Positions 1,935 to 3,229 of a DNA stretch of 33,750 nucleotides are shown piece after piece. The notes under the pieces were generated by a model. The model saw nothing but the letters and a program-made list of their open reading frames with translations. It was not told the DNA's origin and did not search any database. How positions within the stretch are numbered: position 1 is the stretch's first letter; every line of letters starts with the position of its first letter. The translations under genes and the position numbers were made by a program. The DNA is taken from assembly GCA_001600815.1 (NCBI GenBank), contig BCKZ01000011.1:599622-633371 (forward strand). The letters run 5' to 3'. The stretch is from Alloascoidea hylecoeti. Taxonomy: Eukaryota.

Positions 1935-2433
1935 ATTCTGTTTTAACCATACATACATGTCTTTTTTTATAGGCTCAAATTCTCAAGATATTCAGAGCGT
2001 CAACTTTAGACAGGTCACACGAGGATATCCAAAGTATCAACATGTACTGGCACAATAAATATGGATGTAGTTTAAAACATAAAACTATAAAAGCTATTTG
2101 AATGAGGAAATCACTCATAGAGTGAAATACGATCTCCAATAAATCTCATTTAATATTTATGATCAATAATTTGATCCCTATTCTTTCTCTTCCTAACATC
2201 ATCTTCTTTAGTATTATTATTGTTGAGCAATCTTCAAATAGATGTAATATGCCGTCTTTACCTTGTTGACATAAACTACAAATAACAGATTTTTGCCACC
2301 ATTGTTTTGCATTTTTATTATGATGTAGCATATGAGTAACATATCTCAAGCTGAGAAAATGTCTCTTCAGGGTGATAATAGTTTTCTTACTACTTCATCA
2401 TTTAATAGAAAATTATATGTGCGACTAAAGATC
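1935..2433 (-). mobile_element. Decayed non-LTR retrotransposon (L1-clade, Zorro/Ylli-like) ORF2 C-terminal fragment
   Basis: ORF 2146-2349 encodes CSLCQQGKDGILHLFEDC (2227-2280), which has the C-x2-C-x8-H-x4-C spacing and HLF..C ending of the zf-RVT knuckle. The frame continues past a TGA to ..CQYMLILWISSCDL.. Upstream, a shifted frame reads TYNFLLNDEVVRKLLSP*RDIF. Boundaries are approximate. Confidence 0.65.
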
Positions 2434-3142
2434 TAAAGGAAACCATCATGACAGTCATTATTTTGGTTGTTCCTTTGGTTATTATTTTGCGAGTACGTTT
2501 AGCATTTATTGGATACATTTTTATATTAGTTCTCGATACATACATATACTTCATTGGTTCTTTGTGAATTGTCTATAAATAAATATTGGATTGATCTATA
2601 TATACAAAAGAAATCCCACTTTTAAAAGAGGATAACCAAGTTAGCTTTAATATATTGATAGTCGTCTTTATCTGATTCCGCCAGATACATTTATTGTAAG
2701 CCACTAAGTCATTGGTAGCTTACTTTACAGAAGATGTAAGGGAACCCACGATCCTATAGCCACTATTAAGTCATTAGTAGCTTATTTTATAGAGGATGTA
2801 AAGTGAGCTAATAATGACTTAATAGCTTACAATAGATGTAACTGGCGGAATCAGTTACAGATGACGATCAAGATCTAAACAGGAAAGATGTATTAAAAAG
2901 CTGACCTCCCCTCTATTTAAAAGTGGGATTTATCTTATCTTTATATAGGTAAATCCAAAAGCTATTAATATGAAAGTCTTAGAAGTAATTAAGAGTCACC
3001 CTGTATTCCAGCAATGGGATGATGAGCTCAAGAGCTGTGGCATGTGTTTCAGTATAAAATGCATCCAAGAAACGTTAAATGTACTTGGGAAATAATAACC
3101 AAAGGAACAACCAAAATAATGACTGTCATTGTTGTTCCTCTA
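2434..3142. repeat. ~710-bp imperfect inverted repeat (fold-back palindrome)
   Basis: Nested arms: 2448-2487/3090-3129 (perfect 40 bp, extending imperfectly to ~2527/3052); 2586-2655/2888-2958 (perfect 16-bp core 2611-2626/2916-2931); 2672-2729/2797-2854 (51 of 58 complementary). Confidence 0.96.
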
Positions 3143-3157
3143 CACAGGAAATATAGG

Positions 3158-3229
3158 GCCTCCTTAGCTTAGTGGTAGAGCGTTGCACTTGTAATGCAAA
3201 GGTCGGCGGTTCAATTCCGCTAGGTGGCA
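3158..3229 (+). tRNA. tRNA-Thr(UGU)
   Basis: GCCTCCTTAGCTTAGTGGTAGAGCG-TTGCA-CTTGTAA-TGCAA-AGGTC-GGCGG-TTCAATT-CCGCT-AGGTGGCA forms a cloverleaf with A and B boxes and anticodon TGT. A T5 terminator follows at 3237-3241. Confidence 0.97.

What the first reader, a model, noticed from the sequence alone, without database searches (positions are those of the whole stretch)
2434..3142. ~710-bp fold-back palindrome wedged between a LINE remnant and tRNA-Thr
Seen: three nested complementary blocks (perfect 40 bp at 2448-2487/3090-3129, perfect 16 bp at 2611-2626/2916-2931, and 51/58 at 2672-2729/2797-2854) separated by diverged bubbles. There is no ORF, both ends carry TA, the left end abuts the LINE fragment and the right end is 15 bp from the mature tRNA. 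Known: long near-spacerless palindromes are unstable in yeast DNA, and Dicer-retaining yeasts process long hairpin RNA into siRNA. Inference: this is (a) a hairpin-RNA locus, possibly made from retrotransposon sequence and silencing it, (b) a non-autonomous fold-back/MITE-like element, or (c) the scar of fold-back break repair.
Basis: partly seen in the sequence, partly recalled or inferred. Interest (0 to 1): 0.8.

Follow-up and report, generated by a model that had tools for sequence, protein, structure and literature searches.

The report
Stacked retrotransposon ends before a tRNA
The hairpin is real but ordinary: three leftover ends (solo LTRs) of one jumping-gene family landed one after another at the same spot just in front of a yeast tRNA gene, and the last one faces the other way.

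Summary
The three complementary blocks are exactly as described, but the 710 bp is not one element. It is three solo LTRs of one dispersed Ty3/gypsy-type family: A 2432-2729 (+), a 57-bp deleted B 2735-2791 (+) and C 2797-3144 (-), ending 13 bp before tRNA-Thr. Four 5-mers (AAAGA, GAAGA, GAGGA, CAGGA) separate them, which marks serial insertion at one target. Other copies carry 5-bp duplications and sit 11-14 bp from tRNA genes in both orientations; one pair brackets PBS, gag relic and PPT. A and C belong to different subfamilies (p-AU 3.9e-7), which rejects a fold-back scar or MITE. A 2-bp deletion found only in these two arms points to one short arm-to-arm conversion. Argonaute and RNase III genes exist; siRNA output is untested. 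Side result: the flanking LINE relics belong to families placed like Dictyostelium TRE5 and TRE3 (26 of 30 upstream, 25 of 30 downstream). The scan noted that before on other DNA of this genome; the wider test is added here.

The parts
2072..2157 (-). Older LINE 3'-tail relic (my label U2)
   Evidence: 78% to the U2 copy from L146
2154..2365 (-). 5'-truncated LINE ORF2 C-terminal relic (my label U1), pointing away from the tRNA; its 5' end would lie 74-77 bp from the tRNA without the three LTRs
   Evidence: zf-RVT E=0.00027, below the Pfam cut-off; 41 other matches in the genome; 96% to copy U1b; distance by subtraction
2427..2431 (.). Target 5-mer, copy 1 (AAAGA)
2432..2729 (+). Solo LTR-A (298 bp), left arm; inferred oldest insertion
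   Evidence: 89-91% to copies on C2 and C39, clade support 100/100; sense strand set by PBS and PPT of the C5 element
2448..2487 (+). Left copy of the perfect 40-bp block, holding a 2-bp deletion shared only with the right arm
2730..2734 (.). Target 5-mer, copy 2 (GAAGA)
2735..2791 (+). Mini LTR-B (57 bp): both LTR ends, interior deleted; pairs with the start of C across a 5-bp loop
   Evidence: ends match the L019/L048 subtype; junction seen only at this locus in 241 loci; stem -32 kcal/mol
2792..2796 (.). Target 5-mer, copy 3 (GAGGA)
2797..3144 (-). Solo LTR-C (348 bp, TG...CA), right arm; inferred last insertion, opposite orientation
   Evidence: 88-89% to copies on C33, C5 and C32; 38 matches in the genome
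3090..3129 (-). Right copy of the perfect 40-bp block
3145..3149 (.). Target 5-mer, copy 4 (CAGGA), 8 bp before the mature tRNA
3158..3229 (+). tRNA-Thr(UGU), the Pol III gene that defines the target
   Evidence: ARAGORN; Rfam RF00005 70.5 bits
3423..3519 (+). 3' tail with poly(A) of a second LINE family (my label D1), 193 bp downstream of the tRNA and co-oriented
   Evidence: 92% to D1; 40 other matches in the genome; placement

Best explanation
The palindrome is a by-product of repeated, site-specific retrotransposition. A Ty3/gypsy-type LTR element inserted three times at the same 5-bp site about 13 bp upstream of tRNA-Thr. Each insertion duplicated the 5-mer and pushed older inserts away; each later shrank to a solo LTR, and B also lost its interior. 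A and B point towards the tRNA, C points away, so A/C and B/C form imperfect inverted repeats. Afterwards one short tract at the outer ends was copied from one arm to the other. Shown: family membership, termini, 5-bp duplications, tRNA spacing, both orientations, PBS-gag-PPT in a sister element, separate ancestry of the arms, and the private 2-bp deletion. Inferred: the order A, B, C; integrase tethering to TFIIIB as in Ty3; LTR-LTR recombination to solo LTRs; template switching or conversion as the cause of the shared deletion; no selected function.
For: Each arm matches dispersed repeats; only the locus itself covers all 709 bases. 17 of 18 distinct other loci hold a tRNA gene; the exception is the distal LTR of the C5 element. 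In 18 hand-picked tRNA-adjacent copies the LTR edge is 11-14 bp from the mature tRNA, 14 in one orientation and 4 in the other. Flanking 5-mers match at 81 of 100 positions in 20 copies, 8 of them 5/5, against a mean of 30 and a maximum of 56 in 20,000 shuffles. C5:842051-844383 reads LTR, PBS (12 nt complementary to this genome's tRNA-Met 3' end with CCA added), gag relic, PPT, LTR, with weak Ty3_capsid (E=0.0046) and zf-CCHC (E=0.028) hits. Tree of 14 copies: A groups with C2 and C39 copies 100/100; A+C as one clade is rejected. A second same-site stack with CTCTT three times lies at C2 tRNA-Gln. The deletion 17-mer occurs exactly twice in the genome, once in each arm, and in 0 of 18 other copies.
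Against: No copy of this LTR family with pol was found (counts are lower bounds), so RT/integrase order is untested and the gag hits are below Pfam cut-offs. All three window duplications are 4/5, not perfect, and the termini of A and B are each mutated. 2 of the 18 solo copies match only 3/5. The conversion claim rests on one indel inside a block that is conserved anyway (A shares 34 bp with L002). Both arms have end branches over twice the median (0.082 and 0.087 against 0.036), which I cannot explain. No single contig spans the locus.
Confidence: 0.95

Rival explanations
1. Same origin, but the stack now works as a hairpin-RNA locus: an LTR promoter reads through A-B-C, a budding-yeast Dicer cuts the stem, and Argonaute uses the small RNAs against this LTR family.
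For: One Argonaute with PAZ and Piwi in a 983-aa open frame. RNase III genes with the N-terminal domain and two dsRBDs, one with a changed signature motif. Both strands fold with a 40-41 bp helix. The shared deletion keeps that helix perfect. Small RNAs to transposons were cloned in Candida albicans (PMC7175516, passage).
Against: The real pair is among the weakest, 22 of 24, of inverted family pairs; only one helix on the plus strand exceeds 16 bp. No pol-bearing target of this family was found. In C. albicans a hairpin construct failed to silence (PMC7175516, passage). Whether the RNase III proteins are Dicers or Rnt1-type was not resolved.
Confidence: 0.1
2. A scar of fold-back break repair: one LTR was copied into an inverted duplicate.
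For: Short spacer at the B/C centre; a derived deletion shared by both arms.
Against: The arms belong to different subfamilies; each piece has its own 5-bp duplication; the flanks (LINE relic left, tRNA right) are not duplicated.
Confidence: 0.02
3. A non-autonomous fold-back or MITE-like DNA element with long terminal inverted repeats.
For: Inverted ends; the outermost 5-mers share 3 of 5 letters.
Against: No second whole copy among 85 matches; the ends are LTR termini, not TA-flanked; arms occur alone with their own duplications and around a PBS-gag-PPT interior.
Confidence: 0.01
4. An assembly artefact from collapsed repeats.
For: No listed contig spans the whole stretch; 2843-2918 is not bridged by a listed piece.
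Against: Identical contig pieces bridge the left junction (X1), the A|B|C centre (X5) and the tRNA junction (X2, X3); the arms are 67-78% identical; the 5-mer series is coherent.
Confidence: 0.02

Closest known systems
Saccharomyces cerevisiae Ty3 and its solo LTRs at tRNA genes
   Same: 5-bp duplication whose tRNA-proximal end lies within 20 bp of the mature tRNA (PMC6673722, passages); insertion in both orientations (PMC5911963, passage); TG...CA ends and an initiator-Met PBS (recalled for Ty3).
   Different: No pol found for this family; the only two-LTR copy is a 2.3-kb gag-only relic. No sequence comparison with Ty3 itself was run.
Candida albicans beta LTR (Tca8), Yarrowia Tyl3 and Tyl6, Schizosaccharomyces japonicus Tj1, Dictyostelium DGLT-A
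   Same: Ty3/gypsy elements listed just upstream of tRNA genes: beta 6-30 bp, DGLT-A 13-33 bp from the mature tRNA (PMC5911963 Table 1).
   Different: Other hosts; kinship not tested.
Inverted Ty and LTR clusters as fragile sites; quasi-palindrome arm homogenisation in yeast
   Same: Adjacent inverted Ty sequences or LTRs in different orientations promote breaks (PMC7175516, passage); template switching homogenises inverted arms (PMC8604942, abstract).
   Different: Here the arms are 67-78% identical and one indel marks the conversion; breakage was not tested.
Dictyostelium TRE5 and TRE3 non-LTR retrotransposons (for the flanking LINE relics only)
   Same: Side-specific placement: TRE5-A 37-90 bp upstream, TRE3-A 14-228 bp downstream (PMC5006619 Table 1). 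Here U1 lies mostly 39-93 bp upstream (18 of 26) and D1 mostly 10-89 bp downstream (22 of 25).
   Different: Fungal host; only broken copies seen; kinship with TRE proteins not tested. The review table lists tRNA-targeted non-LTR elements only from dictyostelids.

Membership tests
Solo LTR of an LTR retrotransposon | TG...CA termini with short inverted ends | tested here: met
   C intact; A and B each have one changed terminal letter; 15 of 17 other copies end in ACA and 15 of 17 begin TG
Solo LTR of an LTR retrotransposon | Short target-site duplication around each unit | tested here: met
   81 of 100 matches in 20 copies against 30 shuffled; window pieces 4/5 each
Solo LTR of an LTR retrotransposon | Same repeat found as a direct pair around PBS, coding relic and PPT | tested here: met
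   C5 element; outer flanks match 4/5
Ty3/gypsy (Metaviridae) | Ty3-type gag | tested here: inconclusive
   Ty3_capsid E=0.0046 and zf-CCHC E=0.028, both below cut-off; 28-30% to gag of gypsy elements in this genome
Ty3/gypsy (Metaviridae) | pol order PR-RT-RH-IN | not testable with these tools
   No pol-bearing copy with this LTR among the RT and integrase loci fetched; the C5 interior is single-copy
Ty3-like Pol III start-site targeting | Insertion within about 20 bp upstream of mature tRNA, either orientation | tested here: met
   11-14 bp in 18 hand-picked copies, 14 and 4 by orientation; no LTR1 match downstream of 63 score-picked tRNA genes
MITE or fold-back DNA transposon | Whole unit present in several copies | tested here: not met
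   1 of 85 matches covers the unit, itself
MITE or fold-back DNA transposon | TA or other duplication flanking the unit only | tested here: not met
   5-mers flank each internal piece; the TA reading comes from misplaced ends
Fold-back repair duplication | Arms are each other's closest relatives | tested here: not met
   p-AU 3.9e-7
Endogenous hairpin siRNA locus | Host has Argonaute and a Dicer-type RNase III | tested here: inconclusive
   Argonaute present; RNase III genes present, Dicer role not resolved
Endogenous hairpin siRNA locus | Read-through transcript and 21-24 nt reads from both arms | not testable with these tools
   Needs RNA runs of this organism
TRE5/TRE3-like tRNA-targeted LINE (flanking relics) | Side- and orientation-specific placement at tRNA genes across the genome | tested here: met
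   U1 26 of 30, D1 25 of 30, none on the wrong side; 34 and 22 of 63 tRNA genes
TRE5/TRE3-like tRNA-targeted LINE (flanking relics) | Phylogenetic membership in the TRE clade; ORF1-TFIIIB contact | not tested
   No TRE sequences were fetched; no intact ORF1 was seen

The most novel reading that the evidence does not exclude
This concerns the flanks, not the hairpin. The locus records three separate tRNA-homing systems in one yeast: a Ty3-like LTR element at about -13, a LINE family (U1) inserting about 50-90 bp upstream, and an unrelated-looking LINE family (D1) inserting about 20-70 bp downstream, both with the 5' end facing the tRNA gene. That would be TRE5-like and TRE3-like targeting evolved in a fungus, which my searches found described only for dictyostelid amoebae. 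The scan noted it before on other DNA of this genome.
Probability: 0.8. Interest if true: 0.65.

Novelty: new member of a known kind. Interest (0 to 1): 0.27.

Why it matters
The hairpin itself matters little: stacks of solo LTRs at tRNA genes are well known, and this is a tidy example with four target 5-mers in series and one trace of arm-to-arm copying. It warns that long hairpins beside yeast tRNA genes should be checked against LTR families first. If small RNAs came from it, it would show that orientation-indifferent, same-site integration can build a silencing locus against its own family. The flanking LINEs matter more: fungal LINEs that home to either side of tRNA genes would extend a habit known from amoebae and offer a yeast system for site-directed non-LTR insertion.

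Tried and rejected
Rfam: only the tRNA reached a gathering score; 4 other matches were below theirs. Sequencing runs: no RNA holder listed, which says nothing on expression. One search showed no joint that skips an LTR, so no empty allele; contigs show presence only. Arms as LINE sequence: rejected, no LINE match inside 2432-3144. The intact gypsy family with 221-bp LTRs (C45, C26) as parent: rejected, no match between that LTR and this family. The Ty3-like element at C20 beside tRNA-Ile carries another LTR (my label LTR2), with no BLAST match to this family. A second copy of the C5 interior: none. A second copy of mini LTR-B: none in 241 loci (not a whole-genome search). Rows dropped: 5 of 25 mis-anchored rows; 6 copies with LINE inserts or large deletions left out of the tree, one C39 copy added; the window's own tRNA and two on small contigs left out of the tRNA survey. 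Own-genome searches score only the best 30-60 candidates, so all copy counts are lower bounds, and the 63 surveyed tRNA genes are a part of the total. No relatives of this genome are held, so conservation was not tested. No supplements were opened. Earlier-finding look-up by sequence gave nothing.

Full report
1. Observation. The three blocks are exact: 40/40, 16/16 and 51/58. The region folds at -283.7 kcal/mol, z = -16.5, with 0 of 20 shuffles as good. tRNA-Thr(UGU) lies at 3158-3229. The arms, however, are only 67% identical by BLAST, differ by 50 bp and have a third piece between them. Public contigs with no differences bridge the left junction (X1), the centre (X5, a metagenome run at depth 2) and the tRNA junction (X2, X3); none spans the whole stretch. 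An artefact is unlikely.

2. Each arm is a dispersed repeat. A search of the own genome gave 85 matches; only the locus itself covers all 709 bases, the others about one arm or less. The right arm alone gave 38 matches. Of 18 distinct other loci, 17 hold a tRNA gene. In 18 copies that I picked because they touch a tRNA gene, the edge is 11-14 bp from the mature tRNA, 14 in one orientation and 4 (with the window's C) in the other.

3. The repeat is an LTR. Copies have TG...CA-type ends and 5-bp flanking duplications: 81 of 100 positions match in 20 copies, 8 copies perfectly, against a mean of 30 and a maximum of 56 in 20,000 shuffles. The two worst scores are the inner ends of one element on C5, whose outer flanks match 4/5. 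That element reads LTR, primer-binding site (12 nt complementary to the 3' end of this genome's tRNA-Met once CCA is added), a broken gag, a purine run and a second LTR, 13 bp from tRNA-Glu. The gag pieces give weak Ty3_capsid and zinc-knuckle hits below cut-off and 28-30% identity to gypsy gags in the genome. This sets the sense strand: A and B read +, C reads -. No copy with pol was found, so Ty3/gypsy membership is likely, not proven.

4. Anatomy. AAAGA - LTR-A (2432-2729) - GAAGA - mini LTR-B (2735-2791) - GAGGA - LTR-C (2797-3144) - CAGGA - 8 bp - tRNA. Each 5-mer differs from its neighbour by one letter. This is what three insertions at one site leave, the newest next to the tRNA (inference). 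A matching stack of three LTRs with CTCTT three times lies at tRNA-Gln on C2. B keeps both ends and has lost its interior; its remaining tip pairs with the start of C across a 5-bp loop. A full-length B next to C would have been a nearly spacer-less palindrome, so its deletion may be the relief of that strain (inference; timing unknown). Without the LTRs the LINE relic's 5' end would lie 74-77 bp from the tRNA, inside the usual range of its family, so the LINE probably came first.

5. The arms arose separately. In a tree of 14 copies (6 with LINE inserts or large deletions left out) A groups with copies on C2 and C39 at 100/100, and holding A and C together is rejected, p-AU 3.9e-7; 68-72 sites support the subfamily split against 0-3 for A=C. 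This removes the fold-back scar. The lack of whole copies and the per-piece duplications remove the MITE. The real pair folds more weakly than 21 of 23 other inverted pairs of family members, so no selection for pairing is seen.

6. One oddity is real. Inside the 40-bp block both arms lack 2 bp that 18 of 18 other copies keep (5 mis-anchored rows dropped), and the 17-mer across that gap occurs exactly twice in the genome, once per arm. Contigs carry it on both sides. The simplest reading is one deletion copied from arm to arm by template switching or conversion, a known fate of inverted repeats (PMC8604942, abstract only). Against this: it is one indel in a block that is conserved anyway. Both arms also have long end branches, unexplained.

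7. RNA silencing. The genome has one Argonaute and several RNase III genes of the budding-yeast layout. A read-through RNA could form one 40-bp helix. Expression could not be tested. I give the hairpin-RNA reading 0.1.

8. Flanking LINEs. The window has a U1 relic upstream and a D1 tail downstream of the tRNA. Element-first: of the 30 best 3'-end matches of each family, 26 U1 copies lie upstream and head-to-head (18 at 39-93 bp) and 25 D1 copies lie downstream and co-oriented (22 at 10-89 bp); none is on the wrong side. The rest had no tRNA within the 1.5 kb fetched, and 4 of the 5 for D1 run off the fetched edge (each set includes its query copy). tRNA-first: of 63 genes picked by tRNA score, 34 have U1 within 600 bp upstream pointing away (1 toward, 0 downstream) and 22 have D1 downstream pointing away (1 toward and 1 upstream, both between neighbouring tRNA genes). 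Even if all 1,957 first-look tRNA candidates were genes, 600 bp on one side would cover under 5% of the genome (my arithmetic). U1 and D1 share no DNA match and 33% over 55 codons. The distances fit TRE5 and TRE3 (PMC5006619, passages and Table 1). The table of PMC5911963 lists such non-LTR elements only from dictyostelids (passages), PMC7175516 gives Zorro3 a poly(A) target (passages), and searches listed no fungal case; the library lacks most subscription papers. I had this lead; one search then showed that the scan had noted it on other windows of this genome, several saying that the genome-wide test was missing.

9. Comparison and verdict. The stack works like Ty3 solo LTRs at tRNA genes: 5-bp duplication within 20 bp of the mature tRNA (PMC6673722, passages), both orientations. 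Inverted LTR clusters are known in yeast (PMC7175516, passage). A search for hairpin siRNA from such stacks listed no direct case (listing only). Verdict: observation confirmed, interpretation partly supported, new member of a known kind, interest 0.27.

Noticed in passing
G000 C10, L099:3797-5892: A 2.1-kb almost spacer-less palindrome of gypsy RT sequence (self match 96% over 2098 bp; arms 91% to the C45 element). A far better candidate for a fold-back scar or hairpin-RNA source than this finding, unless misassembled.
   Followed up: partly
G000 C8, L098:3529-9225: Inverted duplication with 2365-bp arms at 100% identity and about 970 bp between them, made of the gypsy family with 221-bp LTRs; both outer ends carry an LTR. 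May be real or an assembly error.
   Followed up: partly
L002:1855-1931 (C33, before tRNA-Ser): A 77-bp unit with 20-bp inverted ends that look like two LTR ends facing inward, with CAGTA on both sides. Possibly an inverted LTR pair collapsed by a central deletion.
   Followed up: partly
L033:2066-2238 (C11, between two tRNA-Ala genes); L043:1501-2090 (C27); L105:2844-4415 (C39): Three more opposite-orientation pairs of the same LTR family; the C11 pair is a 173-bp hairpin with a short spacer.
   Followed up: partly
L097:2989-7972 (C20): Ty3-like element with an open PR-RT-RH-IN frame whose LTR (second family) ends 11 bp before tRNA-Ile; two assembly gaps. Shows that this genome holds a tRNA-adjacent Ty3 with integrase.
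   Followed up: partly
L104:1552-3886 (C5): Gag-only two-LTR element whose two LTRs are only 80% identical and of different subtypes, with a 210-aa acidic frame that has no Pfam hit.
   Followed up: partly
L125, L130, L151, L154 downstream flanks; L146 upstream flank: Further LINE families: D2 downstream of tRNA genes (8 of 63 pointing away, 2 toward) and an older U2 upstream.
   Followed up: partly
L116:634-2775; L113; L117: RNase III paralogues: one with a changed signature motif (like Candida Cdl1, by recall of the motif), one short, one with stops inside the domain.
   Followed up: no
window:2-1045 (-); window:1242-1263 and 1817-1838: Secreted-type aspartyl protease gene running off the window; a 22-bp repeat (91%) occurs twice in its upstream region.
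   Followed up: no
small contigs C53, C63-C67, C72, C76, C80, C125, C133: Many RT matches with in-frame TGA, probably mitochondrial group II intron frames (inference).
   Followed up: no
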